From: an uncultured Actinomycetes bacterium
GTDB lineage: Bacteria; Actinomycetota; Acidimicrobiia; Spongiisociales; DATADW01
Reading direction: 5' to 3'
DNA: 23,153 nt
Assembly (NCBI GenBank): GCA_963824995.1
Contig: CAWGRK010000010.1
Span: forward strand, 246,928-270,080
The notes beneath the pieces were generated by a model. It saw only the letters and a program-made list of their open reading frames with translations, was not told where the DNA came from and ran no database searches. The first letter of the stretch is position 1. Each line of letters opens with the position of its first letter. This document shows positions 1 to 21,613 of this stretch, piece after piece. Position numbers and translations under genes: made by a program.

Positions 1-1339
1 CTCGTCCCGGGAATAGGACACGGTCGTCTGAGTCCGCCGGCTCGGACACGGCCAATTCCTCCCAGTGGATTGGGTCTCCGCCGGACCAGAGGGGAGATTG
101 GCGACGCACCACACCCGAGACCGCCGAAGCGACGCGGTCGCGGCGCGATCCGAAAATCACCTCCACCCCGAGATTGGCCGGGGCGTACCAGGCCCACTTG
201 GCCGAGTCGGTCATCACCACCCTCGCCTCGGGGTCGAGGATCGGGGTGATATAGGTGCAAGTGTCGCTGACCATCCGAACCCCGGCCGCCTCGAGGACCT
301 CGACATCTGAGCGGGCGGCAGCGACATCTCCGCGACCGGCGTTCACGTAGGTGTCGATCCGCACCTCGCGGCCATCGAGCAGCCGAGCCAGTTCGGCGAG
401 TTCTGTCCTGGAAGCATGGGGAGTGCCAATGCACACTGCGTCGAGCCGGTCCCCGGTCGCCGTGGAAAGCTCGGCTGCCGCGGCCGAGAGAAACCCAGGA
501 TCGACGAGCACCTCGAACTCGGCGGCCTCCCGGCCGCCAAGGGCGTCTTCGAGTGTCGCCGCCTCCGGCGTCACGCCGACGGCGTGGAACATCGCCACCG
601 ACCCGGCAGACGCCGCAGCGGCGCCGACCGCCTTCAACCGGTCCTCATCGGTATCGGGAGGCAAACCGACGAGCACCGGGACCACCGACCCCGCCAGCCG
701 ACCGAGAACGTGGCCAACCACCGGATAGAGGGCGTCATCCTCGAGCCAATCGTCCGGGACGCCGTCGAGGCGGACGACGAGACGGGCCCGCCGCCCGGCG
801 TCGAGGTGGAGCCCAGCGGCGGGCGCCCGACCAGTCACAGCGGCGGAAATGTCGATGAAGTCGCCGTAGCGGCCGGTACGCGCCCCGAGGACGCTGTTGG
901 CGAAGACGATGGCGTTCGACTCTGCCCAGGCAACTTGGTCCCCGAACGACGGACGCTCCATCAGTTGGTACGGGGAGCACGTCCAGGTGGGGCGACATCC
1001 CATCTCGACGTAAGCGTCCATGAGCCGGCGGGCTTGCACGGCCAATTCGGGATCCCCGCGAAAGCGCTCGGGATGGAGCAGGTCGAGCGTGGACACGTTG
1101 AGCGTGGTGGGCACAGCCGCCTTCGTCCCTGCCTCGGCCAAGAGAAGGGCGAAATCGAGACTCGCCTGACCGTGGTAGAGGCAACCGTCCACGTGGGCCC
1201 CGGCGATGTCGAGCAGACGATCCGCACCTAGGGCTTTCGCCGCCCCCACCACCACCTCCATGGCGATCCGCGGACCCTCACCACGGTCACCATCGAGCAT
1301 TCCGATGTCGTCGTCTTCGAGATGAAGTTCGGGTCGCAC
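1..1339 (-). CDS. Aconitase X (AcnX, DUF521) catalytic subunit, cis-3-hydroxy-L-proline dehydratase-like; open at left edge
   Basis: Not in the ORF track (no stop before the edge). Manual translation from GTG 1339: VRPELHLEDDDIGMLDGDRGEG...AHVDGCLYHGQASLDF...VPTTLNV...PTWTCSPY...AWAESNAIVFANSVLGART...CIGTPH...SDTCTY...VMTDSAKWAWYAPANLG, typical AcnX motifs. Confidence 0.88.
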   Translation of the reverse strand, partial: MRPELHLEDDDIGMLDGDRGEGPRIAMEVVVGAAKALGADRLLDIAGAHVDGCLYHGQASLDFALLLAEAGTKAAVPTTLNVSTLDLLHPERFRGDPELAVQARRLMDAYVEMGCRPTWTCSPYQLMERPSFGDQVAWAESNAIVFANSVLGARTGRYGDFIDISAAVTGRAPAAGLHLDAGRRARLVVRLDGVPDDWLEDDALYPVVGHVLGRLAGSVVPVLVGLPPDTDEDRLKAVGAAAASAGSVAMFHAVGVTPEAATLEDALGGREAAEFEVLVDPGFLSAAAAELSTATGDRLDAVCIGTPHASRTELAELARLLDGREVRIDTYVNAGRGDVAAARSDVEVLEAAGVRMVSDTCTYITPILDPEARVVMTDSAKWAWYAPANLGVEVIFGSRRDRVASAVSGVVRRQSPLWSGGDPIHWEELAVSEPADSDDRVLFPGR

Positions 1340-1428
1340 GCCCGGATTCTGGTCGGGCGGACCTGCCACCTGAGGTGGTGGCTCGGACAAATTTCCGGCC
1401 TCCCGGTCCGCAATCCCCCAATTTTCGG

Positions 1429-1434
1429 TATTCT
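1429..1434 (+). promoter_or_regulatory. Putative -10 element (TATTCT) for the riboswitch/cDPG transcript
   Basis: TANNNT hexamer about 6 nt upstream of the 5' end of the riboswitch. Confidence 0.5.
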
Positions 1435-1440
1435 GCCAGC

Positions 1441-1566
1441 CACGCCGAGCCCGGCTGTCTGCGGCCGGGGCGGGGGACCCAATCCATGGGGCGAATCCCG
1501 GTACGCCGGGTAGGGCGCCTTCCGGCCCGAGCCCGTCAGCTAACCCCGTAGGCAGCAGGAAGGAGG
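1441..1566 (+). ncRNA. c-di-AMP riboswitch (ydaO/yuaA class)
   Basis: Conserved blocks in the expected order: GCCGA (1444), hairpin, GGGGGACCCA (1472-1481), TGGGGCGAATC (1487-1497), GTAGGGC (1510-1516), CCTTCC (1518-1523), GCCCGAGCCCGTCAGCTAACCCCGTAGGC (1525-1553). GGAAGG (1558-1563) is complementary to CCTTCC (pseudoknot overlapping an SD-like GGAGG). Confidence 0.9.
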
Positions 1567-1629
1567 CCAGCTTGCTGGCTCTCCGCGGATCGCCGGTCTG
1601 GGACCGGCCGACATGAGGGGGCGGAGAAC

Positions 1630-2574
1630 ATGCCGCACCGGAGAGCCGACATAAACCGGCAGATGCGCCGAAGGGTCTTGGTCGCCGATCGCGAGGGGGC
1701 CAACCTGCCCTACTCGAAGGGGCTGATGGCCGCCTCGATCATGGCAACGGGCATCCCGCCGGGCCGGGCCTATGACCTTGCCGAACTCATCGAGCACGAT
1801 CTGCTCTCCTTGCGACAGGACACCGTCGATGCAGACACGCTCTCCGGCATCGCCGCAGATGTCCTGCTCCGGCACGCCGGCGATCACATAGCGCGCGGAT
1901 ATCTCGCCTGGAGGGCGGCTAAGCGCTCCCCGCGCCCAATCGTCGTCCTCATCGGCGGCGCCACCGGTGTGGGCAAGTCGACTGTCGCCACCAAGCTCGC
2001 AGCGCGGCTGGGCATCACGAGAGTGATCCCGACCGACACGGTGCGCGAGGTGATGCGCACCTTCATGCCGCCAATACAAGCGCCAGAGTTGCACTCGTCT
2101 TCCTTCGAGGTGGGCGGGGGGGCCGACGAGCTGATCCATGGGTTCCTCCGCCAGAGCCGATCGGTCGCAACCGGGATCGACGGGCTGCTGGGGAGGATGA
2201 TCGCTGAACACAAGGACTCGATCGTCGAAGGGATCCATCTCGTGCCGGGGATGCTCGACGAGGAGATGCTCCATCGTTTCCGCCTCGAGGCCGCCGTGGT
2301 CAAGGTGCTGCTCACCCTCCCCGATGCCTCGGTCCACCGGGCCCACTTCATCGGTCGCCTGGAGAGCGAGCATGGCCGGCGCCCGGAGCGTTACCTGCGC
2401 AACCTCAGCGACATCAGGAAGATCCAGACCCACCTCGAGGACCTCGCCGGGCCGCATGGGTTCTCACTGGTGGATGCCACCGACCTAGACGGAGCGATCC
2501 AGCAGGTACTCGATCTGGTCGTGGCTGAGGTGACCAGCGTCACTGGGGAGAGCCAGGTGGTCGTCGCCGGGTGA
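1630..2574 (+). CDS. 2-phosphoglycerate kinase (ATP-cone + P-loop kinase)
   Basis: N-terminal ATP-cone-like LPYSKGLMAASI; P-loop LIGGATGVGKST; ARLGITRVIPTDTVREVMR, PELHSSSF and IVEGIHLVPG match the archaeal-type 2PGK family. Stop overlaps the cDPGS start (GTGA). Confidence 0.88.
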   Translation: MPHRRADINRQMRRRVLVADREGANLPYSKGLMAASIMATGIPPGRAYDLAELIEHDLLSLRQDTVDADTLSGIAADVLLRHAGDHIARGYLAWRAAKRSPRPIVVLIGGATGVGKSTVATKLAARLGITRVIPTDTVREVMRTFMPPIQAPELHSSSFEVGGGADELIHGFLRQSRSVATGIDGLLGRMIAEHKDSIVEGIHLVPGMLDEEMLHRFRLEAAVVKVLLTLPDASVHRAHFIGRLESEHGRRPERYLRNLSDIRKIQTHLEDLAGPHGFSLVDATDLDGAIQQVLDLVVAEVTSVTGESQVVVAG

Positions 2575-3878
2575 CGCCCGCTCGGGCCCTGGTCCTCATC
2601 GACGGCGAGCACCACCCATCTGTGGTCCTGGATGGGCTGGCTGAGTTGCAGCGGCGCGGTCTGGTGCCGGTGGCGGCATTGTTCCTGGGTGGATCTGAGA
2701 AGACGGCCGGTCTGCCCGAATTGCCCATCCCGGTCCATTCCGGCGACCCGAGTGCGGCGCTCCATGACCTGATGGCGCGCTATCTGCCAGATGTCGTCTT
2801 TGACCTAAGCGACGAACCCGTGCTCGACCACCGGGCGCGATTCGCCCTGATTGGGGTGGCTCTCGCCTCGGGCGTCGCCTACGCGGGTGGAGGGTTCCGG
2901 TTCGAACCGCCCGATCTGCCCAGACTGACGACCAGGCCTTCGGTGGCGGTGGTCGGAACCGGCAAGCGGACCGGAAAGACGGCGGTGTCCATCGCGCTGG
3001 CGCGCCACTGGTCGGCATCCGGGAGAAAACCCGTTGTGGTGACGATGGGGCGAGGAGGCCCCGCAGAGCCCATCGTGCTCGACCCCGCAAACCTCGGCGA
3101 CGCGACTAGTGCGCTGCGCACGTTGGCGAGCCGCGGGCTCCATGCCGCGTCGGACTACGTCGAGGACGCCATCTTCGCCGGCGTCCCCACGGTGGGGACG
3201 AGGCGGATAGGTGCCGGTCCGGCCGGCGTCACCGTCGCCGACACGTTCGCCGCTGGGGTCGCCGCTGCGGATTTGCTGGATCCCGGGCTTCTCATCTTCG
3301 AGGGGAGTGGGACCGCCCTCCCCCCGGCTCGCTGGGATGCGAACGTACTGGTGATGCGGTCCCAGCTCGATCCCGAGTACATCACCGGGTACCTAGGCCC
3401 TTTCCGGCTGGCACTGGCCGACGCCGTCGTTGTCGTGGCCGATGGCGGCTCGGCGGCAGCAGTGGTCCGCCAGATGGCACCCGAGGTGGCGCTCTTCACC
3501 TGTCGCTACCGGGTCGAGCCGACCGTGCCGGTCCAAGGGCGCCGGGTCATGGTCGCCACCACCGCCCCCGAGCCTGCCGGCGACGAGTTGGCCGCCCAGT
3601 TCCGCAACCTCGGCGCGACCTCTGTCGTCGTGGTCCACACCCTCTCGAGGCGCGACCGCCTCCTCGCCGATCTGGAGGGCGCTCCTCCGTGCGACCTCGT
3701 CGTCACCGAGGTGAAGGCCGCGGCTGCCGACGTGGTGTTCCCATGGGCGGACCGGGCCGGAATCCAGGTCGGGCTGCTCCACAACCTGGTCGAGATCGAC
3801 GGGGGTTTGGGGCCACTGGCCGGCCTATTGGAAGAGCGTCTGGCGGCGCCCCGCGAGACTCAACCGAGCACGCGGTAG
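2571..3878 (+). CDS. cpgS: Cyclic 2,3-diphosphoglycerate synthetase (cDPGS)
   Basis: Motifs LIDGEHHP, LGGSEK, DLSDEPVLD, GTGKRTGKTAVS, MGRGGPAEP, HAASDYVED, EGSG, YLGPFRL and TEVKAAAADV. About 435 aa, directly downstream of 2PGK. Confidence 0.88.
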   Translation: MTPARALVLIDGEHHPSVVLDGLAELQRRGLVPVAALFLGGSEKTAGLPELPIPVHSGDPSAALHDLMARYLPDVVFDLSDEPVLDHRARFALIGVALASGVAYAGGGFRFEPPDLPRLTTRPSVAVVGTGKRTGKTAVSIALARHWSASGRKPVVVTMGRGGPAEPIVLDPANLGDATSALRTLASRGLHAASDYVEDAIFAGVPTVGTRRIGAGPAGVTVADTFAAGVAAADLLDPGLLIFEGSGTALPPARWDANVLVMRSQLDPEYITGYLGPFRLALADAVVVVADGGSAAAVVRQMAPEVALFTCRYRVEPTVPVQGRRVMVATTAPEPAGDELAAQFRNLGATSVVVVHTLSRRDRLLADLEGAPPCDLVVTEVKAAAADVVFPWADRAGIQVGLLHNLVEIDGGLGPLAGLLEERLAAPRETQPSTR

Positions 3879-4165
3879 ATCTTGCGTATCGGCTCCCTAC
3901 GGAGCATTCCCCGCACGCGTTCCTGACTATCGACGAGTTCCGGCGAGTCGAGGGCGGCCTCCATCGCCTCCAGCGTCGTCCAACGGGTGACCACGCCGCC
4001 CTCGACGAGTCCGCTCACCCCGGCCTCCTCTGCGATCACCAGATCGATCCCCAGGCAGTCAGGGTGGTCGCGGAAGGCGGGAACGACATCGGCCTCGAAC
4101 AGCGAGATGACCTCCTCGACATCGTCGGGGGAGACCGCGGAGAGGAAGAAGCGGATGTAGCTCAC
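3860..4165 (-). CDS. Antibiotic biosynthesis monooxygenase (ABM)/dimeric alpha-beta barrel family protein
   Basis: About 101 aa with ABM-like pattern (FEADVVPAFRDHPDCLG...VVTRWTTLEAMEAA). GTG 4165 overlaps the stop of the phosphoesterase. Confidence 0.6.
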   Translation of the reverse strand: MSYIRFFLSAVSPDDVEEVISLFEADVVPAFRDHPDCLGIDLVIAEEAGVSGLVEGGVVTRWTTLEAMEAALDSPELVDSQERVRGMLRREPIRKIYRVLG

Positions 4166-4986
4166 CAGCCCCAACTCGACTTGGAGAACATGCCGGCCAA
4201 TTCGGGATTGCGGTCGAGCGCTCGGGTATTCCGGTCGTATCTGGCGGCCAGCTTCTCGCCGCTCCCCGGGTACATCAGGGTCACCGAGATCGCCTCGGAA
4301 TCGACGGTGACCACGTTGTACGACGGTCTCGTGTAGCCGCGGAGGCGGAAGGAGGAAACTGTCCCGCTGTTGACCACCATGATCCCGTCCACCACCCAGA
4401 TGTGGGGCACGTGCTTATGGCCACACAGGACCAGATCGACCCCGCTCTCCTCGAGCACCGCCAGAACGTCGCCCGCGTCCCACACGGTGTTGCGCTCTCG
4501 TCCGGTTCCCGGGACAGGCACGAGGTGGTGGTGGAGGGCGAATATCCGCAGGTCCGACGGAGTGGTGAACTGCTCCCGGATCCACGGGTAGCGGACCCTC
4601 CCCACCTCCCCCTCGGCGAGGTCGGGCTTGGAGCTGTCCACGGCAACCAGGGTGACCCGCTCAGGCTCGACACCCCTGGCCAGGTCCACCACCACATCGT
4701 TTCCGGCGTCACCCTTCCCGAAATGGTCCTCAAAGTGGACATAGCCGACGTTCTTGGCGTCGTGGTTGCCCGGGATGATCACGGTGAGCAGTTCGTCGAC
4801 CAAAGGTCGCAGCGCATCGCGGGCCATCTGGAACTCGTTGGCGTACCCCTCCTGGGTGAGATCGCCGGCTACCACCACCATGTCTGGCTGAAGGGAGAGA
4901 ATCTCCTCGACGGCATGACTGAGCAGGTCAGGGTCGAAATACTGGGAGCCGCAGTGGATGTCCGACAGCTGGGCGATGGTGAGCAC
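4162..4986 (-). CDS. Calcineurin-like metallophosphoesterase (CpdA/Icc-like)
   Basis: All five metal-binding motifs: SDIH, GDLT, PGNHD, LHHH, CGHKH. Confidence 0.88.
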   Translation of the reverse strand: MLTIAQLSDIHCGSQYFDPDLLSHAVEEILSLQPDMVVVAGDLTQEGYANEFQMARDALRPLVDELLTVIIPGNHDAKNVGYVHFEDHFGKGDAGNDVVVDLARGVEPERVTLVAVDSSKPDLAEGEVGRVRYPWIREQFTTPSDLRIFALHHHLVPVPGTGRERNTVWDAGDVLAVLEESGVDLVLCGHKHVPHIWVVDGIMVVNSGTVSSFRLRGYTRPSYNVVTVDSEAISVTLMYPGSGEKLAARYDRNTRALDRNPELAGMFSKSSWGW

Positions 4987-5070: not shown

Positions 5071-6631
5071 CTATTCGACGTTGACCACGACGGAGTGGTA
5101 GCCGGTCGCTCCGTCGGGGGCAGGGGGAGCGACCTCGTCGGTCTGGGTTTCGCCTGTTCCGTCGGTGGCACGGACCATGATCGAGTGGGTTCCCGAGGTC
5201 GCTTCCCACGGCATCCGCCATTGTCGCCATGTCGTGTCGGCCAGTTCTGCGGCGAGTTCGGCGGGCTGCCATCGACCGCCATCCACCCGCACCTCGACAC
5301 CGCTGATCCCGCGGGTCGGCGCCCATGCGACGCCGGCTATCGCCTGCTGGCCGGGACGGATGGTGGAACCGTCCACTGGAACGTCGATCACGCGACTGCG
5401 TCTTGATCGGTGCCTCCTTGGACCATCCCCGCGGCACCCAGTAGGCGTCGAAGCCGTCCCAGGTGGCGAGTTCGACCTCGGTGAGCCACTTGGTGGCGGA
5501 TACGTATCCGTAGAGACCGGCGACTATCAGCCGAGCCGGGAACCCGTGCTCGAAGGGCAGCGGCTCGCCATTCATACCCACCGCGACCATGGTGTCTCGC
5601 CCGTCGAGCGCCACCTCGGTGGGGAAGCCAACGGTGAAGCCGTCGGCGGAGCGACCCACGATCTGGGTCGCTCCCGGCTGCACGCCCGCTCGCTCGAGCA
5701 GGACCGGCAGCGGGACTCCCAGCCACTTCGCAGTGCCTATCAGGTCGCCCCCGACCTCGTTGCTCACACAGGCGATGGTGATGTGACGCTCCACCATGGG
5801 CATGTCGATCAGTTCCAAGAAGTCGACCTCGAAGGGGCGATTCACCATCCCGGTGAATCCGAGTCGCCAGGTGGTCAGATCCACCCTCGGCACGGTGAGC
5901 GCGGTGTCGATCCGATAGAACTCGGCATTGGGTGTGACCAGGGGGGAGAGGCCCTGGATCTGGAACGATGCCCGGCCCGGAGGCGCGGCGACCGTCTCGG
6001 CCGCAGCCGGCAGCACCACATCCTCCCGCCCAGCCAGCATGCGTCGCGCCTGGTCGGCGAGAAAACGCCCGCCGGCGGCGGCCAGCGCCGCCAAAGCAAC
6101 CACCGACCCGGCGGCGGCGATGAATGCCCGCCTCCCCCGGTCAGTTCCCCGGTCGGCCGGGGGGGCGCTCAGCCGCAACAGAGCGGCAAGAACCGCAATG
6201 CCCACCAAGGCGGCCGCCGCCGCGGTGAGCCAGACGCCAACCGCCGGGACATCGGGGATTCGCAGGGCCGACATCGCCCCGGCCACCCCGAACACACCGA
6301 ACGCGATGATCCCCCAACCCATCCACCGGGCAGCCAGCAGACCGACCACCGCACCGATCCCGGCGATGACCAACACCGAACCCACCAGGAGTGCCGTCTT
6401 GTCGTTGGTGCCGAAGATAGAGATGGCGGCATCCTTCACCCCGGGCGGCACCGAGTCGATGACAAAGGTCCCTACTGCGTCGAGCAGCGAAGGAACCTCG
6501 GACAGCAGTCCGGCCACCAACTCTGCGGCGCCCAGGGCCGCCAGGCTTGCGACCGCACCGGACACCGCCTGACGCCCACGGCTCGCGGCCGGCGTGGGAG
6601 GGGAGGCGACCGGTGCTTCGGTTACGGCCAT
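5071..6631 (-). CDS. Molybdopterin-dependent oxidoreductase (sulfite oxidase family) with N-terminal TM helices; frameshift at ~5389
   Basis: FYRIDTAL, TIACVSNEVGG, MNGEPLPFEHGFPARLIVAGLYGYVSATKW, YWVPRGW; RRAFI Tat-like motif. The C-terminal domain (IDVP...AGVAWAPTRGISGVEV...WRQW...VRATDGTG) continues in another frame (5071..5391) after one extra base in KTQSR/IDVP. Confidence 0.85.
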
Positions 6632-7453: not shown

Positions 7454-7497
7454 GGCGGAATCGTACGGGCCGGTCATAGGATTCCGCCATGGCGGAA
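7450..7497. promoter_or_regulatory. Symmetric divergent leaderless promoter region with 13-bp inverted repeat
   Basis: CCATGGCGGAATC (7450-7462) and GATTCCGCCATGG (7480-7492). Each strand reads TANNAT-TCCGCC-ATG. There is also a 16-bp palindrome at 7482-7497. Confidence 0.6.
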
Positions 7498-8169
7498 GTC
7501 GACGCTGGCGCGGTCGTGATCGGCGCCGATGGCAAGGCGCGCTGTTGGTGGGGAGCGAGCCCGCCGGAGTATCTCGCCTACCACGACGAGGAGTGGGGCC
7601 GCCCGGTCGGTGACGACCGTCTTCTCTTCGAGAAGTTGTGCCTCGAGGGGTTCCAAGCAGGTCTGTCATGGCTCACCATCCTGCGCAAGAGGCCTGCGTT
7701 TCGATCCGCCTTCGACGGGTTCGACATTGCAACTGTGGCGCGCTTCGGCGAGGCCGACGTATCCCGCCTGCTCGACGATCCGGGCATCGTCCGTCATCGT
7801 GGCAAGATCGTTGCAGCGATAGGCAATGCCGGCTTGGCGCTGCGTCTGATCGAGGAGCACGGCTCGCTCGCCTCATTCGCATGGGATTACGCCCCCGAAG
7901 TGCCCGAGAAGGCACCGACGCTGCGCTCGATCTCGCCCGAGTCGAGCGCCATGAGCCGGGATCTGAAGCGACGAGGCTGGTCCTTTGTCGGGCCGACGAC
8001 GGTGTACGCCTTCATGCAGGCAATGGGCATGGTCAACGATCACGTGGTTGGTTGTTGGGCACGGGACGAGGTCGGGGCGGCTCGGGCCGAGTTCCTGTCA
8101 TCCTTTTCTGGAACGGACCAGCCCGACACCGTGTTGACCGAACAGGTATCACCGAGAGGAGCGCCATGA
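7489..8169 (+). CDS. tag: DNA-3-methyladenine glycosylase I
   Basis: RCWW...[60 protein letters not shown]. Confidence 0.93.
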
Positions 8170-8573
8170 CCGACACCGAACGGACCGAACTACCCACCAC
8201 CGAGGATGAGTGGCGGAGCAGGCTGACACCCGAACAGTTCGAGGTCTTGCGGCGAGAGGGGACCGAGAGAGCTTTCACCGGCATCTACTGGAACGAGAAA
8301 GAGCCGGGTACCTATCGCTGCGCCGGGTGCGGCACTCCCCTCTTCTCGTCGGACACCAAATACGACTCAGGGACCGGATGGCCCAGCTTCTGGGAACCGG
8401 TTTCACCAACCGCCATCGAGACCCGCGACGACTTCAGCACCGGGACGACGCGTACCGAGGTGCGCTGCGCCACCTGCCACGGCCACCTCGGGCACGTCTT
8501 CCCCGATGGCCCCCAACCCTCCGGCCTGCGCTACTGCATGAACTCTGCAGCAATGGACTTGGAGCGCAGCTAG
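8166..8573 (+). CDS. msrB: Peptide-methionine (R)-S-oxide reductase
   Basis: [47 protein letters not shown] 8166 overlaps the tag stop (ATGA). Confidence 0.95.
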
Positions 8574-15467: not shown

Positions 15468-16049
15468 TCACCGACGGGGCGGGTCGAGCGGAACGCCGGC
15501 GGCTTCAGCGACCACCCGGAAGGAACGCGCCAGCGTTCCCGCCGACTCGTGGGCGTTGAGACCGCTCGGGTTGCCCAGCACGTACAGACCGGTCCCGCCG
15601 AGCGACTCGGGCTGGCGCCCTGGCACCGCCTTCGGACGGGAGAAACCGATTCGGTAGGCGGTGACGCCGAGCACCGCGGCGACCTTGGGACGCCACATCT
15701 CTACCAGCGCGGTCAGCGATGCCGCCCCTTCCTGTAGCTCGGCAGACGACAGCTCGTCGGCCCGCACCGTTGCTCGGTTGACCAGATTGGTGACCCCAAC
15801 CCCCCGATCCAACAGGTGCTGACGGGCAGCCTCGTCGAGCCCGGCGGCCGGATCAAGCAGCCGATCGGTGATCCCCGCCATGTACAGCGCCGGGTAGAAG
15901 CGGTTCCCTGGCCGGGCGAAATGGGTGTTGGTGGCGGCGGTCCACAAACCAGGGTTGATCCCGATGAACAGCAGTTTCACACCGGGTCCGATGAGATCGT
16001 CCACCGGCTGATCGCGGAAGGCCTCGAGTTCCAGCTTGGTGAAACCCAC
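15468..16049 (-). CDS. mug: G/U mismatch-specific DNA glycosylase
   Basis: LFIGINPG, HFARPGNRFYPAL, GVTNLVNRAT..ADEL, NPSGLNAH. GTG 16049 chosen because TATGGT lies six nt upstream. Confidence 0.9.
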   Translation of the reverse strand: MGFTKLELEAFRDQPVDDLIGPGVKLLFIGINPGLWTAATNTHFARPGNRFYPALYMAGITDRLLDPAAGLDEAARQHLLDRGVGVTNLVNRATVRADELSSAELQEGAASLTALVEMWRPKVAAVLGVTAYRIGFSRPKAVPGRQPESLGGTGLYVLGNPSGLNAHESAGTLARSFRVVAEAAGVPLDPPRR

Positions 16050-16117
16050 TGGCGCACCATAGGAGGAACCTGCAACCGGACGACGTGGACCGGTGTTCTT
16101 CATGCAGGATGGTGATC

Positions 16118-16696
16118 ATGACGGCTGTGGTGGATGCAGAAACGCGGGACTCCGAGATCGTGCACCTCTTGGCGGCGGGCGTCGACGATGCCTTCCCCGC
16201 CATGGTGCGCGCTTTCGAGGACGGGCTGTTCTCCGGACTCCTCCGGATGGTCGGCAACAGGGGCGACGCCGAGGATCTCGCCCAGGAGACCTTTGCCAGG
16301 GCATACCGCTCTCTGCGCGACTTCCCACCCGACCGGATCCTCGCCCTCCGGCTTCGCGGGTGGTTGTGGACCATCGCGCTCAATCTCACCCGCAACCGGG
16401 CGAGAACCACCAGCCGCAAACCCCCGCCGCTGGAACTGACAACACCCCGTGAACCTGTCATGCCCGGCCCCGGCCCCGAGGAGTCGGCACTGATCGCCGA
16501 AGCGGAGAGCGAGTGGCACCGCAGGCTGGCGGCGATCCGATCGGTGCAGCGCATCGCTGTCGTGCTGCGCCACATCGTTGGGCTCAGCTACGAGGAGATC
16601 GCCGAGGCCACAGGCCGGCCGTCGGGGACGGTCAAGGCAGATGTGCACCGCGGGTTGGCGACGCTGCGAGCCCTGCTCGACGAGGAGGAACGATGA
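16118..16696 (+). CDS. ECF RNA polymerase sigma-70 factor
   Basis: Region 2 DAEDLAQETF...WLWTIALNLTRN; region 4 VVLRHIVGLSYEEIAEATGRPSGTVKADVHRG. Confidence 0.92.
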   Translation: MTAVVDAETRDSEIVHLLAAGVDDAFPAMVRAFEDGLFSGLLRMVGNRGDAEDLAQETFARAYRSLRDFPPDRILALRLRGWLWTIALNLTRNRARTTSRKPPPLELTTPREPVMPGPGPEESALIAEAESEWHRRLAAIRSVQRIAVVLRHIVGLSYEEIAEATGRPSGTVKADVHRGLATLRALLDEEER

Positions 16697-17469
16697 TGGA
16701 TGTGATCGAGGGTTTGGAAGGGCTGCGCACAACCGCACCGCCTTCGCTTCTGACGAGAGTTCTTGCGGCGACAGGTCTGGCCGACGGATACGTCCGGGTT
16801 CCAGGCCCCATGGGAGACCTCTTCGTGGCCTTCAGCCCCGACGGTGTCTCCTGGATCGCCCCCGCCGTAGATGAGGCCGAGTTCGAGGCAGCGTTCCGTC
16901 TCCACGTGGGTCGTGAGATCGTGTCGGTTCCCACCTTTCCTCCGAAGTGGCAGCGCGCTCTCGACCGGGCGCTCGACACGGGGCGACTCGGGTCGCTCCC
17001 GGTGGATCTCCGGAGCGTGTCCCCGTTCCAGGCCGAGGTGCTGCGTGCCATCACCGCCATCCCACCGGGCGAGGTCCGCCCATACGCCTGGGTGGCCCGT
17101 CAGGTGGGGCGTCCTGGGGCTGTCCGAGCGGTGGGAACAGCAATGGCGAGGAACCCGGTTCCGGTCGTGGTCCCATGCCACCGCGTCATCCGCTCCGACG
17201 GGACGGTTGGCAATTACGCCTACGGCCCCGAGATGAAGCGTGCCCTGCTAGCCGCCGAGGGTCTCGACGTCGCCGAGATGGAAGCCGAAGCCATCGCCGG
17301 CCACCGTCTCACCGGGAGCGACACCACCCACATCTACTGCTACCCGAGCTGCCACCACGCCCGCCGCGTCACCGACAAGCACCGCGTCTGGTTCCACGAC
17401 GCCTCCCAAGCCACCGCGGCGGGGTATCGGCCGTGCAAACGCTGCACGCCACTCGAAGCGGCTGCCTGA
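16693..17469 (+). CDS. Methylated-DNA-protein-cysteine methyltransferase (Ogt) with C-terminal Ada-type Zn-binding domain
   Basis: IPPGEVRPYAWVA, AVRAVGTAMARNP, active site PCHRV; C-terminal TTHIYCYPSC...GYRPCKRC. ATGA overlap with the sigma gene and RBS GAGGAGG. Confidence 0.9.
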   Translation: MMDVIEGLEGLRTTAPPSLLTRVLAATGLADGYVRVPGPMGDLFVAFSPDGVSWIAPAVDEAEFEAAFRLHVGREIVSVPTFPPKWQRALDRALDTGRLGSLPVDLRSVSPFQAEVLRAITAIPPGEVRPYAWVARQVGRPGAVRAVGTAMARNPVPVVVPCHRVIRSDGTVGNYAYGPEMKRALLAAEGLDVAEMEAEAIAGHRLTGSDTTHIYCYPSCHHARRVTDKHRVWFHDASQATAAGYRPCKRCTPLEAAA

Positions 17470-18015: not shown

Positions 18016-19848
18016 ATGGCCAAGGCCGTCGGCATCGATCTCGGGACCACGAACAGCGTCATCGCCGTCTTGGAGGGCGGCGAGCCCACGATCATTCCCA
18101 ATGCGGAAGGTTCACGGGTCACACCATCGGTAGTCGCCTTCAAGGACGGAGAGGTTCTCGTGGGCGAGGTGGCCAAGCGCCAGGCGATCACCAACCCGGA
18201 CCGGACCATCCGTTCGGTGAAGCGTCACATGGGAACGAACTGGAACGCCGAGGCGGACGGGAAGAAGTACACCGCCCAGGAGATTTCCGCTCGCGTCCTG
18301 CAGAAGTTGAAGAGGGACGCCGAGTCGTACCTCGGTGACACGGTGGCGGAGGCCGTCATCACCGTCCCGGCGTACTTCAACGATGCGCAGCGGCAGGCGA
18401 CCAAGGAAGCCGGTCAGATCGCCGGCCTCAACGTGCTCCGCATCATCAACGAGCCGACAGCCGCCTCGCTCGCCTATGGCTTGGACAAGGAGACCTCGGA
18501 CCACACCATTCTCGTTTTCGACCTGGGGGGAGGGACCTTCGATGTTTCGCTGCTCGAGATCGGCGAAGGCGTCTTCGAGGTCAAGGCGACCTCAGGTGAC
18601 ACCCATCTCGGGGGAGATGACTGGGACGAGAAAGTCATGGAGTGGCTGGTGACCGGGTTCAAGAACGAAAGCGGGGTGGACCTCGGCAAGGACAAGATGG
18701 CACTGCAGCGGCTCAAGGAGGCTGCGGAGAAGGCCAAGATCGAATTGTCGTCGGTCCCCGAGACCGAGATCAACCTCCCCTTCATCACCGCCACGGCTGA
18801 GGGCCCGCTCCATCTGCAGCGCAAGCTGACCCGTTCGGAGTTCCAGAAGCTGACCGAGGACCTGCTCGACCGGACCAAGTCACCGTTCAACCAGGTGATC
18901 AAGGATGCCGGAGTAGATGTCGCCGACATTGACCACATCGTCCTGGTCGGCGGCTCGACCCGGATGCCCGCCGTTCAGGACCTGGTGCGCGAGCTCACCG
19001 GCAAGGATCCCCACAAGGGTGTCAATCCCGACGAGGTGGTCGCCGCAGGTGCCGCTATCCAGGCGGGCGTGCTCAAGGGCGATGTCAAGGACATCCTCCT
19101 CCTCGATGTGACCCCCCTGACCCTCGGGATCGAGACCAAGGGTGGGGTAATGACCAAGATGATCGAGCGCAACACGACCATCCCCACCCGGCGGTCGGAG
19201 GTGTTCACCACTGCCGAGAGCAACCAACCCGAGGTCGAAATCCACGTCTTGCAGGGTGAGCGTGCGATGTCCGCTGACAACAAGAGCCTCGGCAAGTTCC
19301 GGCTGACCGGCATCCCGCCGGCGCCGATGGGGATTCCCCAGATCGAGGTGACCTTCGACATCGACGCCAATGGCATCGTCTCGGTCAACGCCAAGGATCT
19401 CGGTACCGGCAAGGAGCAGGCGATGACCATCACCGGTGGGACGGCCTTGGCCGGCGACGAGATCGACCGGATGGTCAAGGACGCCGAGCAGTACGCCGAG
19501 GAAGACCGGCAACGTCGCGAGGCTGCGGAGACACGCAACCAGGGCGACCAGTTGGTGCACCAGACCGACAAGCTGCTCACCGAGCAGGCGGAGCAACTGA
19601 GCGACGACGAGCGCAGCGCGATCGAGTCTGCCCTCAAGGATCTCCGCACCACCCTGGAGGACCAGTCGGTGGCCGCCGACGAGATCCGCTCCAAGATGGA
19701 AGCGGTGATAACGGCTTCGCAGGCACTGGCCCAGCGGATCTATCAGCAGGCAGCGGAGCAACAGGCAGGCGAGGAATCGTCGGGCGTCGAGGACGAGGAC
19801 ATCGTCGAGGCCGAGATCGTCGATGAGGGCGAAGAGGAGCAGGCTTGA
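18016..19848 (+). CDS. dnaK: Chaperone DnaK (Hsp70)
   Basis: [48 protein letters not shown]. Confidence 0.99.
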
Positions 19849-20471
19849 CGGCGGACGGCGGACGGCGGACGACCGTGAACGAGGAGGCAAGTGCGCCGGA
19901 GGTGGAGATCATCGAAGGCGAGGTCGTCACGGGCGAGATCGTCCCTGAACCGGAGCCACTCGACCCGCACGTCCTCGGTCTCGAGTTCCCTGAGGATCCC
20001 GAGGAGGCACGTCAAGTCCTGTTGAGTGCCTTGGCCGAGAGTCGCGACGAGGCCGGGCGTTATCTCGATGACCTTCGCCGGGTCGCCGCCGACTTCGACA
20101 ACTTCAGGAAGCGTGCCCTGCGCGACCAGGGCGCCATTGTCGAGCGCGCCTCGGAGCGGGTGGTCCAGTCGTTGCTCCCGGTTCTCGACAGTCTCGACGC
20201 CGCAATGGCGATCGAGCCGGAGACCGAGACTGAGCGCAAGCTTCTCGACGGCGTCAAGGGCACCTTCAACTTGCTCCTCGATACGCTCGGGAAAGAGGGT
20301 CTCGTACCCATCGAGGCGCTGGGCATGGACTTCGACCCGACCGTCCACGAGGCTGTGGCGGCGCCCGGCGGTGGAGAGAGCGACCTCGTGGTCACCCAGG
20401 AACTGCGGCGCGGCTACACGCTGGGTAGCCGGGTGCTGAGGCCCTCCCTCGTTGTCGTAGACCACGGATGA
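19845..20471 (+). CDS. grpE: Nucleotide exchange factor GrpE (start TTG 19845 or GTG 19875)
   Basis: [46 protein letters not shown]. Confidence 0.96.
19847..19874. repeat. Tandem heptamer repeat (GACGGCG)3-GACGACC
   Basis: Read directly at the dnaK/grpE junction. Confidence 0.85.
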
Positions 20472-20502
20472 GGCCATGGCGGGGGCATAGGAGGCCTAAC
20501 TC

Positions 20503-21612
20503 TTGAACCGAGACTGGGTCGACAAGGACTTCTACAAGGTGCTGGGCGTCGGCCGCGACGCAGACCAGGACCAAATCAAGCGCGCCTACCGCAAGCTCGC
20601 CCAGAAGCATCACCCAGACGCCAACCAGGGTGACGAGAAGGCCGAGGACAAGTTCAAGGACGTCTCCGAGGCCTACGCCACCCTCTCCGATCCCGAGCAG
20701 CGCAAGGAGTACGACGAAGTCCGCACCATGGTGGACAGCGGCGGGTTCCGTGGGTTCGGTGGATCGGGGGCGTATTCCGGTGGCCAGAGGGTGCGCGTCG
20801 AGGATCTGTCCGACCTCTTCGGTGGGATCGGTGACATCTTCGGAGGGTCAAGGGGGCGTGCCACCACACCGCAGCGTGGTCCGGACGCCGGCACCGACCT
20901 ACACCTCACCTTCGACGAGGCGGTGCGCGGGGTTGATACCGCGGTAACGGTGCGTGGCGAGGCCACGTGCAGCAGATGTCACGGCTCGGGCGCCGAGCCG
21001 GGGACACCGGTGACTGTGTGCCCGACCTGTCGCGGTTCGGGCACAGTCGCCCAGAACCAAGGGGTGTTTTCCTTCGCCTCTCCCTGCCCGCAATGCCGTG
21101 GCTCGGGGATGTTGATCGAGCAGGCCTGTGCCCAGTGCCGCGGCAGCGGGACAGAGGTGCGCTCGAGGACCGTCAAGGTTCGGGTGCCGCCGGGTGTCAA
21201 GCCTGGAGGGACGATCAGGCTCAAAGGCAAGGGCTCACCGGGTCGTAACGGCGGCCCCTCTGGAGACCTCCTCATCAAGACCCACGTGGCACATCACCCG
21301 GTGTTTGGTCGTCGTGGCGACGACCTGACCGTCAAGGTGCCAATCACCTACTCGGAGGCTGTGCTCGGCGCCAAGGTCGAGGTCCCAACCCTCAACGGCT
21401 CGGTCACCCTCAAGGTGCCTCCGGGCACACCAGGCGGCAAGACGTTCCGGATCAGAGGAAAAGGAATCGATCGGGCAAGGGGCAAACCGGGCGACCTTCT
21501 GGCCACGGTCGACGTCGTCATCCCGCAGAAGGTCAACCGTGATGCCAAGAAATTGCTCGAGGAGTTACGCGCCTTCGAGCCGGAGAACCCACGAGCCAAC
21601 CTGAGGGTCTGA
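20503..21612 (+). CDS. dnaJ: Chaperone DnaJ
   Basis: J-domain with HPD, G/F region, four CxxCxGxG repeats; TTG start with GGAGG. Confidence 0.97.
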   Translation: MNRDWVDKDFYKVLGVGRDADQDQIKRAYRKLAQKHHPDANQGDEKAEDKFKDVSEAYATLSDPEQRKEYDEVRTMVDSGGFRGFGGSGAYSGGQRVRVEDLSDLFGGIGDIFGGSRGRATTPQRGPDAGTDLHLTFDEAVRGVDTAVTVRGEATCSRCHGSGAEPGTPVTVCPTCRGSGTVAQNQGVFSFASPCPQCRGSGMLIEQACAQCRGSGTEVRSRTVKVRVPPGVKPGGTIRLKGKGSPGRNGGPSGDLLIKTHVAHHPVFGRRGDDLTVKVPITYSEAVLGAKVEVPTLNGSVTLKVPPGTPGGKTFRIRGKGIDRARGKPGDLLATVDVVIPQKVNRDAKKLLEELRAFEPENPRANLRV

Positions 21613-21613
21613 C

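What the first reader, a model, noticed from the sequence alone, without database searches (positions are those of the whole stretch)
1441..3878. c-di-AMP riboswitch controlling a bacterial cyclic 2,3-diphosphoglycerate (cDPG) synthesis operon
Seen: a well-formed ydaO-class riboswitch ends about 63 nt before the coupled 2PGK-cDPGS genes, on the same strand, with a -10 box just upstream. Established: c-di-AMP riboswitches regulate K+ transport, osmoprotectant and cell-wall genes, and cDPG is an anionic solute and K+ counter-ion of methanogenic archaea. Inference: this bacterium makes cDPG as an osmolyte or K+ counter-ion and gates its synthesis with c-di-AMP, probably OFF when c-di-AMP is high. 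I know of no description of this link.
Basis: partly seen in the sequence, partly recalled or inferred. Interest (0 to 1): 0.92.

Follow-up and report, generated by a model that had tools for sequence, protein, structure and literature searches.

The report
c-di-AMP riboswitch before bacterial cDPG genes
A standard c-di-AMP-sensing RNA switch sits in front of two genes for making cyclic 2,3-diphosphoglycerate, a solute so far studied only in heat-loving methanogens, which suggests that this small group of soil Actinomycetota ties its synthesis to potassium and osmotic balance.

Summary
Rfam RF00379 (c-di-AMP riboswitch) matches window 1433-1569 (+) at 76.8 bits (gathering score 38, E 1.6e-16, full model). 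A 2-phosphoglycerate kinase homologue (1630-2574) starts 60 nt downstream and overlaps by 4 nt a cDPG synthetase homologue (2571-3878). That homologue matches the solved M. fervidus enzyme at E 2e-65, and 10 of 10 mappable active-site residues are identical.

The link is real but narrow. Of the 80 closest bacterial cDPGS loci, only 2 carry the riboswitch. They are the window's nearest relatives and form one clade with it. Only these three have 2PGK placed in front of cDPGS. In the three genomes the aptamer (91-92% identity) and the spacer (93-95%) are far better conserved than third codon positions (49-74%).

The spacer fits a translational OFF switch: GGAG / CUCC / Shine-Dalgarno strand exchange coupled to the aptamer pseudoknot. 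The same scheme was proposed for the Corynebacterium nlpC riboswitch.

Ligand binding, the cDPG product and an osmolyte or K+ counter-ion role are untested. I found no paper linking the two. It is a new regulon member of a known riboswitch class.

The parts
1429..1434 (+). -10-like hexamer TATTCT (TANNNT); candidate promoter element that would place the transcription start just before helix P1
   Evidence: Read from the sequence. Kept as TAATCT in L001 and TATTCT in L002. Not detected by the sigma-70 consensus scan, so the evidence is weak.
1433..1569 (+). c-di-AMP riboswitch aptamer (Rfam RF00379, ydaO/kimA class), full length
   Evidence: 76.8 bits against a gathering score of 38, E 1.6e-16. 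RNAalifold on the three orthologous leaders reproduces the aptamer helices, with 1 compensatory and 3 one-sided changes in P2. Nucleotide identity between orthologues is 91-92%.
1518..1523 (+). CCUUCC in a hairpin loop of the aptamer: 5' partner of the class's pseudoknot
   Evidence: Perfectly complementary to GGAAGG at 1558-1563. The crystallised ydaO RNA has the equivalent loop-to-3'-tail pseudoknot (PMC5393176 passages). Invariant in the 3 orthologues, so there is no covariation.
1558..1563 (+). GGAAGG 3' tail: 3' partner of the pseudoknot; overlaps by 2 nt the GGAG at 1562-1565 that forms the base of hairpin A
1562..1584 (+). Hairpin A: GGAG (1562-1565) plus GCCAG paired with CUGGC plus CUCC (1581-1584). 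GGAG acts as the anti-anti-SD and CUCC as the anti-SD.
   Evidence: Present in the MFE and RNAalifold structures. The loop varies (U, A, C), and one C-to-U change in L002 lies beside it, at the top of the stem. CUCC pairs upstream with probability 0.92-0.98 when the tail is free.
1592..1608 (+). Hairpin B: 7 bp, 3-nt loop, no U-tract. Either a spacer element or a non-canonical terminator.
   Evidence: No intrinsic-terminator-like site on the + strand.
1616..1627 (+). Shine-Dalgarno region AGGGGGCGGAGA before ATG 1630; target of the anti-SD CUCC when the pseudoknot tail is sequestered
   Evidence: With 1558-1563 blocked, CUCC re-pairs with G1617-G1620 (probability 0.77-0.82). The mean unpaired probability of this 12-nt stretch falls from 0.48-0.50 to 0.31-0.37 in all three orthologues.
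1630..2574 (+). 2-phosphoglycerate kinase homologue (314 aa; ATP-cone-like N-terminus plus P-loop kinase)
   Evidence: NCBIfam NF008994 E 2.3e-75 and NF003259 E 4.2e-69, both below equivalog cut-offs. Pfam gives only weak P-loop and ATP-cone hits. No solved homologue. A homologue lies beside cDPGS in 76 of 80 related loci.
2571..3878 (+). cyclic 2,3-diphosphoglycerate synthetase homologue (435 aa); GTG start overlaps the 2PGK stop by 4 nt
   Evidence: PDB 8ORK/8ORU E 2e-65 and 9SXB E 1e-62. Active-site residues are conserved. More than 4900 database homologues, the named ones among the 120 listed being from Acidimicrobiia, Acidimicrobiales or Actinomycetota.
3860..4174 (-). Small ABM-domain ORF (104 aa), convergent with cDPGS; conserved companion, not under the riboswitch
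   Evidence: Pfam ABM E 1.7e-5. tblastn finds it in all 7 other loci that have the convergent arrangement, at 55-96% aa identity.
4162..4986 (-). Calcineurin-type metallophosphoesterase (274 aa), convergent; recurrent neighbour of cDPGS and candidate cDPG or 2,3-DPG hydrolase (speculative)
   Evidence: Pfam Metallophos E 1.1e-19. Nearest solved chains are deposited as 'Phosphohydrolase' (2ZO9, 2DXL) and Rv0805, E 2e-9 to 3e-8. The same family lies next to cDPGS in 31 of 80 loci plus the window.

Best explanation
A functional c-di-AMP riboswitch lies in the 5' leader of a two-gene mRNA (2PGK-cDPGS). The two enzymes convert 2-phosphoglycerate through 2,3-DPG to cyclic 2,3-diphosphoglycerate.

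Proposed mechanism, as an OFF switch acting mainly on translation:
- Low c-di-AMP: the aptamer's 3' tail is free. GGAG (1562-1565) pairs with CUCC (1581-1584) in hairpin A, which leaves the Shine-Dalgarno region (1616-1627) more accessible, so 2PGK is translated and the overlapping cDPGS is translated with it.
- c-di-AMP bound: the tail GGAAGG (1558-1563) is drawn into the aptamer pseudoknot with loop CCUUCC (1518-1523). The base of hairpin A opens, and the released CUCC pairs with the G-run of the SD, so translation falls.

Physiological reading: cDPG, a trivalent anion, is made when c-di-AMP is low, the state in which K+ and osmolyte uptake are de-repressed in other Gram-positives. It would then serve as K+ counter-ion or compatible solute.

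Shown: the aptamer, the genes, their coupling, conservation of the leader, restriction to one clade. Inferred: ligand binding, OFF polarity, translational mechanism, cDPG as the product, osmotic role.
For: - Aptamer: 76.8 bits, twice the gathering score, full model.
- Orthologous aptamers score 84.0 and 82.9 bits at the same position before 2PGK in L001 and L002.
- Aptamer identity is 91-92% and spacer identity 93-95%. The adjacent intergenic DNA is 76-81% identical and third codon positions 49-74%, so both the aptamer and the expression platform are under selection.
- RNAalifold recovers the aptamer helices, hairpin A and hairpin B.
- Blocking the pseudoknot tail moves CUCC from the upstream GGAG (0.92-0.98) to the SD (0.77-0.82) in all three orthologues.
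- The same GGAG/CTCC/RBS-GGAG scheme, with reporter evidence for translational OFF control and no canonical terminator, is described for the actinobacterial C. glutamicum nlpC riboswitch (PMC9960051, passages).
- No intrinsic terminator was found in the leader.
- cDPGS: E 2e-65 to the solved enzyme. M. fervidus residues E45, K46, K145, R146, K149, T150, D208, T353, E404 and K406 correspond to E43, K44, K132, R133, K136, T137, D195, T331, E380 and K382. All are identical and invariant in 33 bacterial homologues.
- 2PGK and cDPGS homologues are neighbours in 76 of 80 related loci.
- Archaeal cDPG metabolism is tied to K+: the review PMC1224877 describes a K+-activated synthetase, a K+-inhibited hydrolase and a contribution to osmotic balance (one passage).
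- ydaO-class targets are K+ transporters, amino acid transporters, cell-wall and osmotic-shock genes (PMC7266159, passages).
Against: - Only 3 near-identical leaders exist, so covariation is minimal: 1 compensatory pair of 55, and none in the platform or the pseudoknot.
- The modelled effect on the SD is modest. Unpaired probability falls from about 0.49 to about 0.34 and the energy gap is 2-4 kcal/mol. The SD is partly paired with codons 2-3 in both states. ViennaRNA cannot model the pseudoknot, so it was imitated with a constraint.
- 78 of the 80 closest bacterial cDPGS loci lack the riboswitch. That includes the sister group, even at E <= 1. c-di-AMP control is therefore not intrinsic to the pathway.
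- In most lineages the genes sit among housekeeping genes. This fits a metabolic or storage role as well as an osmotic one.
- The 2PGK homologue scores below both NCBIfam equivalog cut-offs.
- No sigma-70 consensus promoter was found, and the transcription start is unknown.
- No diadenylate cyclase is in the window, and the genome could not be searched.
Confidence: 0.62

Rival explanations
1. The same riboswitch and the same genes, but control is by premature transcription termination. This could be Rho-dependent, or use a non-canonical terminator such as hairpin B (1592-1608), rather than SD sequestration.
For: The prototype B. subtilis ydaO/kimA switch terminates transcription. For the S. 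coelicolor rpfA switch, which lacks a canonical terminator, terminated transcripts were reported in vitro (as summarised in PMC9960051, passages). Hairpin B is stable and invariant. The 60-nt spacer is 93-95% conserved, which is more than SD masking alone would need.
Against: There is no U-tract after either hairpin, and the terminator scan found nothing on the + strand. Hairpins A (upper part) and B form in both modelled states, so there is no obvious terminator/antiterminator alternative. The closest studied actinobacterial example acts on translation.
Confidence: 0.22
2. The riboswitch works, but the product is not an osmolyte or K+ counter-ion. Either the pathway makes cDPG or 2,3-DPG as a phosphate, carbon or energy store, or the bacterial enzymes have a different substrate. 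The c-di-AMP link would then reflect a lineage-specific metabolic adjustment.
For: In 63 of 81 loci a rho gene lies in the locus, downstream of the pair, and the typical locus runs hom-thrC...rho among housekeeping genes, with no riboswitch. Review PMC1224877 (one passage) records a carbon, phosphate or energy storage role proposed in methanogens. A phosphodiesterase-family gene is a frequent neighbour (31 of 80 loci), which would fit turnover of a store. The 2PGK homologue is below the equivalog cut-offs, and its family also contains mevalonate-3-phosphate 5-kinase.
Against: The substrate-contacting residues of cDPGS are all conserved. Known ydaO-class regulons centre on K+, osmotic and cell-wall functions. 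The same review says high cDPG levels contribute to osmotic balance and that both enzymes respond to K+.
Confidence: 0.25
3. The element is an ON switch: c-di-AMP binding increases expression.
For: The polarity is inferred only from folding three nearly identical sequences with an imitation of the pseudoknot. If cDPG balances K+ already accumulated, induction at high K+ and high c-di-AMP could also be argued.
Against: In the passages read, c-di-AMP riboswitches are described as OFF switches (PMC9960051). In the model, tail sequestration lowers SD accessibility in all three orthologues.
Confidence: 0.07
4. The aptamer is a decaying relic or a chance match and has no regulatory role.
For: It is found in only 3 related genomes. 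G+C is high (0.74), with a composition bias term of 8.5 bits.
Against: E 1.6e-16, full-length match. The leader is better conserved than neutral sites in the flanking genes. One compensatory change lies in P2.
Confidence: 0.03

Closest known systems
c-di-AMP riboswitch class (Rfam RF00379; prototype B. subtilis ydaO/kimA leader)
   Same: Full-length match at twice the gathering score. Same helices. Loop-to-3'-tail pseudoknot complementarity is present. It lies in a 5' leader on the sense strand. OFF polarity is expected.
   Different: The prototype uses an intrinsic terminator (PMC9960051 passages), and none is present here. The controlled genes are biosynthetic enzymes for an anionic solute, not transporters or cell-wall enzymes.
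Corynebacterium glutamicum nlpC c-di-AMP riboswitch (PMC9960051)
   Same: Actinobacterial, with no canonical terminator. The proposed mechanism matches: CTCC pairs with a GGAG about 20 nt upstream when ligand is absent, and with the RBS GGAG when ligand is bound. Here GGAG 1562-1565, CUCC 1581-1584 and the SD 1616-1627 have the same layout.
   Different: The target there is a cell-wall peptidase operon. The paper, citing Nelson et al. 2013, states that almost all ydaO-preceded genes in Actinobacteria are cell-wall related. In C. glutamicum the regulation was shown with reporters. Here nothing has been tested experimentally.
Archaeal cDPG pathway: 2PGK plus cDPGS of Methanothermus fervidus (PDB 8ORK/8ORU; PMC10690619, PMC12136491)
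   Same: Both enzymes have full-length homologues here. 10 of 10 mappable ligand, Mg and catalytic residues of cDPGS are identical.
   Different: The host is a bacterium (Actinomycetota MAG lineage). The papers read describe cDPG as found exclusively, or only, in hyperthermophilic methanogens. The genes here form a riboswitch-controlled operon. Product and physiology in bacteria are untested.
Typical actinobacterial cDPGS-2PGK locus (73 of the 80 related loci)
   Same: The same two gene families are adjacent on one strand. A metallophosphoesterase neighbour is frequent.
   Different: The order is cDPGS then 2PGK, usually between thrC (or the phosphoesterase) and tal/rho, with no RF00379 match. 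The window clade has 2PGK first, a different chromosomal neighbourhood (AcnX upstream) and the riboswitch.

Membership tests
c-di-AMP riboswitch (Rfam RF00379) | Covariance-model score at or above the curated gathering score over the full model | tested here: met
   76.8 bits against 38, model positions 1-134 of 134, E 1.6e-16. Orthologues score 84.0 and 82.9 bits.
c-di-AMP riboswitch (Rfam RF00379) | Characteristic multi-helix secondary structure supported by the sequences themselves | tested here: met
   RNAalifold on the three leaders, run independently of the Rfam model, recovers P1, P2, the long-range GCGGGG/CCCCGU helix and the internal hairpins. There is 1 compensatory and 3 one-sided changes, all in P2, and the other pairs are invariant.
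c-di-AMP riboswitch (Rfam RF00379) | Pseudoknot between a hairpin loop and the 3' tail | tested here: inconclusive
   CCUUCC 1518-1523 and GGAAGG 1558-1563 are perfectly complementary, at the positions where the consensus and the crystallised RNA have complementary loop and tail. There is no variation among the 3 orthologues, so no covariation test is possible.
c-di-AMP riboswitch (Rfam RF00379) | Selective high-affinity binding of c-di-AMP | not testable with these tools
   Needs in-line probing or ITC.
c-di-AMP riboswitch (Rfam RF00379) | Location in the 5' leader of the regulated mRNA, with an expression platform | tested here: inconclusive
   Sense strand, 60 nt before the start codon, with a conserved spacer (93-95%) and a plausible SD-sequestering platform. 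The transcription start is unknown, and no consensus promoter was found.
[quoted passage not shown] | Full-length homology to the biochemically and structurally characterised enzyme | tested here: met
   E 2.2e-65 to 8ORK, with query residues 5-415 of 435 aligned to chain residues 6-440 of 460. The local Pfam and NCBIfam copies have no matching model. The protein database labels the family PF27272.
[quoted passage not shown] | Residues that bind 2,3-DPG, Mg2+ and ATP in the M. fervidus structure | tested here: met
   E45, K46, K145, R146, K149, T150, D208, T353, E404 and K406 (PMC10690619 section 8) align with identical residues E43, K44, K132, R133, K136, T137, D195, T331, E380 and K382. All are invariant in 33 bacterial homologues. 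E305 aligns with D291. P335 could not be mapped unambiguously.
[quoted passage not shown] | Catalytic formation of cDPG from 2,3-DPG and ATP | not testable with these tools
   Needs an enzyme assay or 31P-NMR.
2-phosphoglycerate kinase (2PGK) | Match to the curated family models at their cut-offs | tested here: not met
   NF008994 scores 254 bits against a cut-off of 603, and NF003259 scores 233 bits against 343. The E-values are 2e-75 and 4e-69, and NF003259 is covered over positions 5-296 of 306. It is a clear full-length homologue but not an equivalog by NCBI's threshold. No solved structure is available for comparison.
2-phosphoglycerate kinase (2PGK) | Conserved genomic coupling with cDPGS, as supporting evidence for a shared pathway | tested here: met
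   A homologue lies on the same strand near cDPGS in 76 of 80 loci: 73 downstream and 3 upstream. L008, L040, L073 and L076 have none within the stretch held. In the window the two ORFs overlap by 4 nt.

The most novel reading that the evidence does not exclude
cDPG is described in the papers I read as exclusive to hyperthermophilic methanogens. The boldest reading not excluded is that it is a widespread solute of mesophilic Actinomycetota. In one Acidimicrobiia-related lineage it would have been rewired into the c-di-AMP osmoregulon. The operon was rearranged so that 2PGK comes first and a riboswitch was recruited, so that the anionic partner of K+ is synthesised only when c-di-AMP is low. 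The convergent phosphodiesterase and ABM pair would form the missing cDPG-degrading branch. That would be a case of a c-di-AMP riboswitch gating synthesis, not transport, of an osmolyte or counter-ion. It would also be the first physiological handle on bacterial cDPG.
Probability: 0.3. Interest if true: 0.75.

Novelty: new member of a known kind. Interest (0 to 1): 0.58.

Why it matters
c-di-AMP is the central regulator of K+ and osmolyte homeostasis in Gram-positive bacteria. Its known riboswitch targets are mostly transporters and, in Actinobacteria, cell-wall enzymes (passages in PMC7266159 and PMC9960051). A riboswitch in front of a solute-synthesis operon would extend that regulon.

It also gives a specific, testable hypothesis for a gene pair with no described function in bacteria. 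At least 579 stretches in a collection holding one genome per species encode a cDPGS relative. The cDPG papers I read still describe the compound as confined to hyperthermophilic methanogens.

The system is small enough, at about 200 nt of leader plus two genes, to test directly in Corynebacterium or E. coli. cDPG is also of biotechnological interest as an extremolyte (PMC12136491), so mesophilic bacterial enzymes could be useful.

The limitation is that the regulatory link is confined to one narrow clade of uncultured organisms.

Tried and rejected
- **Leader peptide.** A 14-codon uORF starting at TTG 1572 behind the SD-like AGGAGG looked possible. It is rejected because the start codon is TAG in L001 and TCG in L002. 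The AGGAGG is better explained as pseudoknot tail plus anti-anti-SD.
- **General association of RF00379 with bacterial cDPGS.** Rejected: 2 of 80 loci at gathering threshold, and 0 further hits at E <= 1 in the 8 loci L003-L009 and L075. Caveats: L016, L040 and L069 hold only 68-213 nt before cDPGS. L075's upstream 2PGK and L064's upstream phosphoesterase run to the locus edge. Only the best 80 of at least 579 matching stretches were retrievable.
- **Riboswitch serving the divergent AcnX gene (2-1390, - strand).** Rejected on strand grounds.
- **Canonical promoter or terminator.** None found.
- **Antisense ORF 1540-2457 and ORF 3689-4336.** No family hits, so treated as high-G+C artefacts.
- **Diadenylate cyclase in the window.** None among 49 ORFs scanned with Pfam.
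- **Original gene tables.** Nelson et al. 2013 (PMC3830699) and Block et al. 2010 (PMC2916388) are not held. Neither their gene tables nor their supplements could be checked for 2PGK or cDPGS.
- **Careful tree.** The careful maximum-likelihood tree did not finish in the time allowed, so the quick IQ-TREE result is used.


Full report
**1. The observation**

A covariance-model scan of the whole 23,153-nt window against Rfam 15 gave one match at gathering threshold. It is RF00379, the c-di-AMP riboswitch aptamer, at 1433-1569 on the + strand. The score is 76.8 bits against a gathering score of 38, with E 1.6e-16, and it covers model positions 1-134 of 134 without truncation. With permissive filters and E <= 0.1 it is still the only RNA family match in the window.

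The next ORF on the same strand starts at ATG 1630, 60 nt after the model's end. The '-10 box' is TATTCT at 1429-1434. It fits only the loose TANNNT pattern and is kept in the two orthologous leaders. The consensus sigma-70 scan found no promoter-like site in 1250-4300. The promoter is therefore plausible but unproven.

**2. The genes**

ORF 1630-2574 (314 aa) matches the NCBIfam 2-phosphoglycerate kinase models NF008994 (E 2.3e-75) and NF003259 (E 4.2e-69, profile positions 5-296 of 306). Both scores are below the equivalog cut-offs. Pfam sees only weak P-loop kinase and ATP-cone signals, and no solved structure matches.

Its stop overlaps by 4 nt the GTG start of ORF 2571-3878 (435 aa). That ORF has no hit in the local Pfam or NCBIfam copies. 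It matches the solved Methanothermus fervidus cDPG synthetase (8ORK, 8ORU) at E 2e-65 over residues 5-415, and a third cDPGS entry, 9SXB, at E 1e-62.

Section 8 of PMC10690619, read in full, names the residues that hold 2,3-DPG, Mg2+ and ATP. In the alignment:
- E45, K46, K145, R146, K149, T150, D208, T353, E404 and K406 correspond to identical residues E43, K44, K132, R133, K136, T137, D195, T331, E380 and K382.
- All ten are invariant in an alignment of 33 bacterial homologues.
- E305 aligns with D291.
- P335 could not be mapped.

The pair is therefore a bona fide homologue of the archaeal two-step cDPG pathway, with the cDPGS active site intact. Nothing else on the + strand follows. The next genes, an ABM-domain ORF at 3860-4174 and a metallophosphoesterase at 4162-4986, are convergent.

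**3. Relatives elsewhere**

The protein database holds more than 4,900 cDPGS homologues at E <= 0.001 among the 8,000 candidates scored. Among the 120 listed, the few that carry an organism name are from Acidimicrobiia, Acidimicrobiales or Actinomycetota MAGs. Only four clusters besides the window's own exceed 75% identity, and the next is at 59%.

The best 80 were kept. All are MAGs and nearly all are labelled Actinomycetota. I ran Rfam at gathering threshold over all 80 loci in five calls. RF00379 is present in 2 of 80:
- L001, at 2860-2998, 84.0 bits.
- L002, at 2862-2999, 82.9 bits.

These are the two closest relatives (cDPGS 79-84% identical, 2PGK 90-92% identical). A permissive scan at E <= 1 of the next-closest loci, L003-L009 and L075, gave no c-di-AMP match.

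Some negatives are uninformative. L016, L040 and L069 hold only 68-213 nt before cDPGS. In L075 the upstream 2PGK, and in L064 the upstream phosphoesterase, run to the locus edge.

**4. Gene order and context**

tblastn finds a 2PGK homologue in 76 of 80 loci, with none in L008, L040, L073 or L076. In 73 loci it lies downstream of cDPGS on the same strand. In 3 loci (L001, L002, L075) it lies upstream, as in the window.

I clustered all ORFs of at least 110 aa from the 80 loci plus the window and ran Pfam on representatives. The typical locus is hom > thrC > (metallophosphoesterase >) cDPGS > 2PGK > (transaldolase >) rho. Counts out of 81 are rho 63, PALP/thrC 36, homoserine dehydrogenase 29 and transaldolase 39. 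In most Actinomycetota, then, the pair is embedded among housekeeping genes.

The window, L001 and L002 share a different neighbourhood: AcnX upstream on the other strand, and ABM plus phosphoesterase convergent downstream.

A quick IQ-TREE of the 81 cDPGS sequences places the three riboswitch-bearing sequences in one clade (SH-aLRT 100). That clade sits inside a 10-sequence group (SH-aLRT 100) with L003-L009. The careful search did not finish, and the root is midpoint only. Five of that group (L003, L005, L006, L007, L009) share the 'cDPGS > ABM < phosphoesterase <' arrangement, but with 2PGK further downstream and no riboswitch.

The simplest history is a single event in the window's lineage. 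2PGK moved in front of cDPGS and the riboswitch was recruited. The order of those two steps cannot be resolved.

**5. Is the leader functional?**

Nucleotide identity among the window, L001 and L002:

| Region | Identity |
|---|---|
| Aptamer 1433-1569 | 91-92% |
| Spacer 1570-1629 | 93-95% |
| Intergenic DNA just upstream, 1391-1432 | 76-81% |
| 2PGK CDS | 83-89% |
| cDPGS CDS | 74-82% |
| 2PGK third codon positions | 61-74% |
| cDPGS third codon positions | 49-62% |

Both the aptamer and the expression platform evolve much more slowly than neutral sites. This argues against a relic. RNAalifold on the three leaders recovers the aptamer helices plus two downstream hairpins. Of 55 predicted pairs, one shows a compensatory change and three show one-sided changes, all in P2, and the rest are invariant. 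Covariation evidence is therefore thin.

**6. Mechanism**

The aptamer's hairpin loop CCUUCC (1518-1523) is complementary to GGAAGG (1558-1563) in the 3' tail. These are the positions where the Rfam consensus and the crystallised ydaO RNA have their loop-tail pseudoknot (PMC5393176 passages).

The tail overlaps GGAG 1562-1565, which pairs with CUCC 1581-1584 at the base of hairpin A (1562-1584). A further hairpin lies at 1592-1608. The Shine-Dalgarno region AGGGGGCGGAGA lies at 1616-1627. I found no U-tract terminator.

Folding the platform gave the following:

| Measure | Tail free | Tail 1558-1563 blocked (imitating the pseudoknot) |
|---|---|---|
| CUCC paired upstream with GGAG | 0.92-0.98 | 0.04-0.05 |
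| CUCC paired downstream (SD G-run G1617-G1620 in the MFE fold) | 0.01-0.07 | 0.77-0.82 |
| Mean unpaired probability of the 12 nt before AUG | 0.48-0.50 | 0.31-0.37 |

The result holds in all three orthologues. This is an OFF switch by SD sequestration.

The same logic was proposed for the C. glutamicum nlpC c-di-AMP riboswitch: CTCC pairs with a GGAG about 20 nt upstream without ligand, and with the RBS GGAG when ligand is bound. There, reporters indicated translational repression at high c-di-AMP and no canonical terminator (PMC9960051 passages).

The weaknesses are these. The pseudoknot was imitated, not modelled. The energy gap is 2-4 kcal/mol. The SD is partly paired with codons 2-3 in both states. 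There is no covariation in the platform. Transcription attenuation, by Rho or at hairpin B, remains a serious rival.

**7. Physiology (inference)**

In the passages I read, ydaO-class riboswitches are associated with K+ transporters, amino acid transporters, cell-wall remodelling and osmotic-shock genes (PMC7266159). They are described as OFF switches. In Actinobacteria almost all targets are said to be cell-wall related (PMC9960051, citing Nelson et al. 2013).

For the archaeal pathway, the review PMC1224877 (one passage) reports a K+-activated cDPGS, a hydrolase inhibited by K+ and phosphate, a contribution to osmotic balance, and a proposed carbon, phosphate or energy storage role.

Taken together, cDPG synthesis would be switched on at low c-di-AMP, alongside K+ uptake. 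That would supply the anionic partner of K+. This is coherent but untested. A storage role is not excluded, particularly given the housekeeping context and the missing riboswitch in 78 of 80 related loci.

**8. Known or new**

Full-text searches gave these results:
- '2-phosphoglycerate kinase' with 'c-di-AMP': 0 papers.
- 'cDPG' with 'c-di-AMP': 0 papers.
- 'ydaO' with 'phosphoglycerate kinase': 0 papers.
- 'diphosphoglycerate' with 'c-di-AMP': 2 papers, both reviews on metabolite synthesis judging by title and abstract start.
- 'cDPGS': 9 papers.
- '3-diphosphoglycerate synthetase': 14 papers.
- '2-phosphoglycerate kinase': 43 papers.

Judged from the search listings only, none of the papers in the last three sets describes an actinobacterial pathway. 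The abstract of PMC10690619 states that cDPG occurs exclusively in hyperthermophilic methanogens. [quoted passage not shown]

The limits of this claim are as follows. The library lacks most subscription papers. Nelson et al. 2013 and Block et al. 2010 were not held, so their gene tables and supplements were not seen. Database annotators already name the bacterial proteins as cDPG synthetase.

The riboswitch itself is an ordinary member of a known class with a known type of platform. The regulated pathway is what appears to be new, and the finding brings into focus the unstudied bacterial distribution of that pathway.

**9. Verdict**

- Observation: confirmed.
- Interpretation: partly supported. 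It is correct in anatomy and plausible in mechanism and polarity, but confined to one small clade and physiologically untested.
- Interest: 0.58. It is a clean, directly testable link between the main osmoregulatory messenger of Gram-positives and a solute thought to be archaeal. The score is tempered by the narrow distribution (three uncultured genomes) and the lack of any experimental handle so far.

Noticed in passing
window 4162-4986 (-); L038-L080 upstream of cDPGS; L003, L005, L006, L007, L009 downstream: A calcineurin-type metallophosphoesterase is a recurrent neighbour of cDPGS, in 31 of 80 loci plus the window. In 24 loci it lies co-directionally just upstream (MPE > cDPGS > 2PGK). 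In 7 loci plus the window it is convergent, 273-366 nt after cDPGS. Its nearest solved chains are deposited as 'Phosphohydrolase' (2ZO9, 2DXL) and Rv0805. It is a candidate for the unidentified cDPG or 2,3-DPG hydrolase. This is speculative.
   Followed up: partly
window 3860-4174 (-): A small ABM-domain ORF (104 aa, Pfam E 1.7e-5) fills the gap between cDPGS and the phosphoesterase, overlapping the ends of both. It is conserved in all 7 other loci with the convergent arrangement (55-96% aa identity). This explains the 86-89% nucleotide identity of the 'intergenic' stretch 3879-4161. Its function in this context is unknown.
   Followed up: partly
L010-L080 in general: In most Actinomycetota the cDPGS-2PGK pair sits between the threonine genes (hom, thrC) and transaldolase/rho/rpmE. 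rho is present in 63 of 81 loci. That is a core chromosomal position, which suggests long vertical inheritance and not recent transfer from archaea. At least 579 stretches in the one-genome-per-species collection encode a relative, at odds with 'exclusive to hyperthermophilic methanogens'.
   Followed up: partly
L019, L028, L038, L067, L052: A few loci are labelled Burkholderiales, Acidobacteria, Eubacteriales or Slackia. Their cDPGS sequences nest among Actinomycetota sequences in the quick tree. This may reflect mis-binned contigs, mislabelled MAGs or transfer. It was not examined.
   Followed up: no
L002 about 4001-4342 and 5540-5607: In L002 the cDPGS and ABM matches are split between reading frames. 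The cDPGS ORF begins only at 4303, and ABM gives two HSPs one base apart. These are apparent frameshifts, possibly assembly indels and not true pseudogenes.
   Followed up: no
window 18880-19890 (-): There is a Pfam NAD-GH (PF10712) hit at E 4.8e-70 on the strand opposite dnaK (18016-19848, Hsp70 E 8.5e-250). From recall, this family is known to derive from antisense translations of dnaK. I treat it as an artefact, not a gene.
   Followed up: no
window 18016-22015 (+): A heat-shock operon: dnaK, grpE, dnaJ and a MerR/HspR-like regulator. Elsewhere in the window are stress and repair genes: MsrB 7638-8573, a 3-methyladenine glycosylase 7489-8169, a UDG-family gene 15468-16103 (-), an ECF-type sigma factor 16085-16696, and an Ada/Ogt fusion 16513-17469. 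No connection with the finding was established.
   Followed up: no
L004 3886-3957 (-); L005 780-853 (-): tRNA genes lie close upstream of cDPGS in two Acidimicrobiia loci. In L004 the tRNA ends 44 nt before the cDPGS match. Possibly a rearrangement or integration hotspot. Not examined.
   Followed up: no
window 1619-1639 (+): In every fold, GGGCGG of the SD region pairs with CCGCACC of codons 2-3, leaving the AUG in the loop. This standing hairpin may set a low basal translation rate independent of the riboswitch.
   Followed up: no
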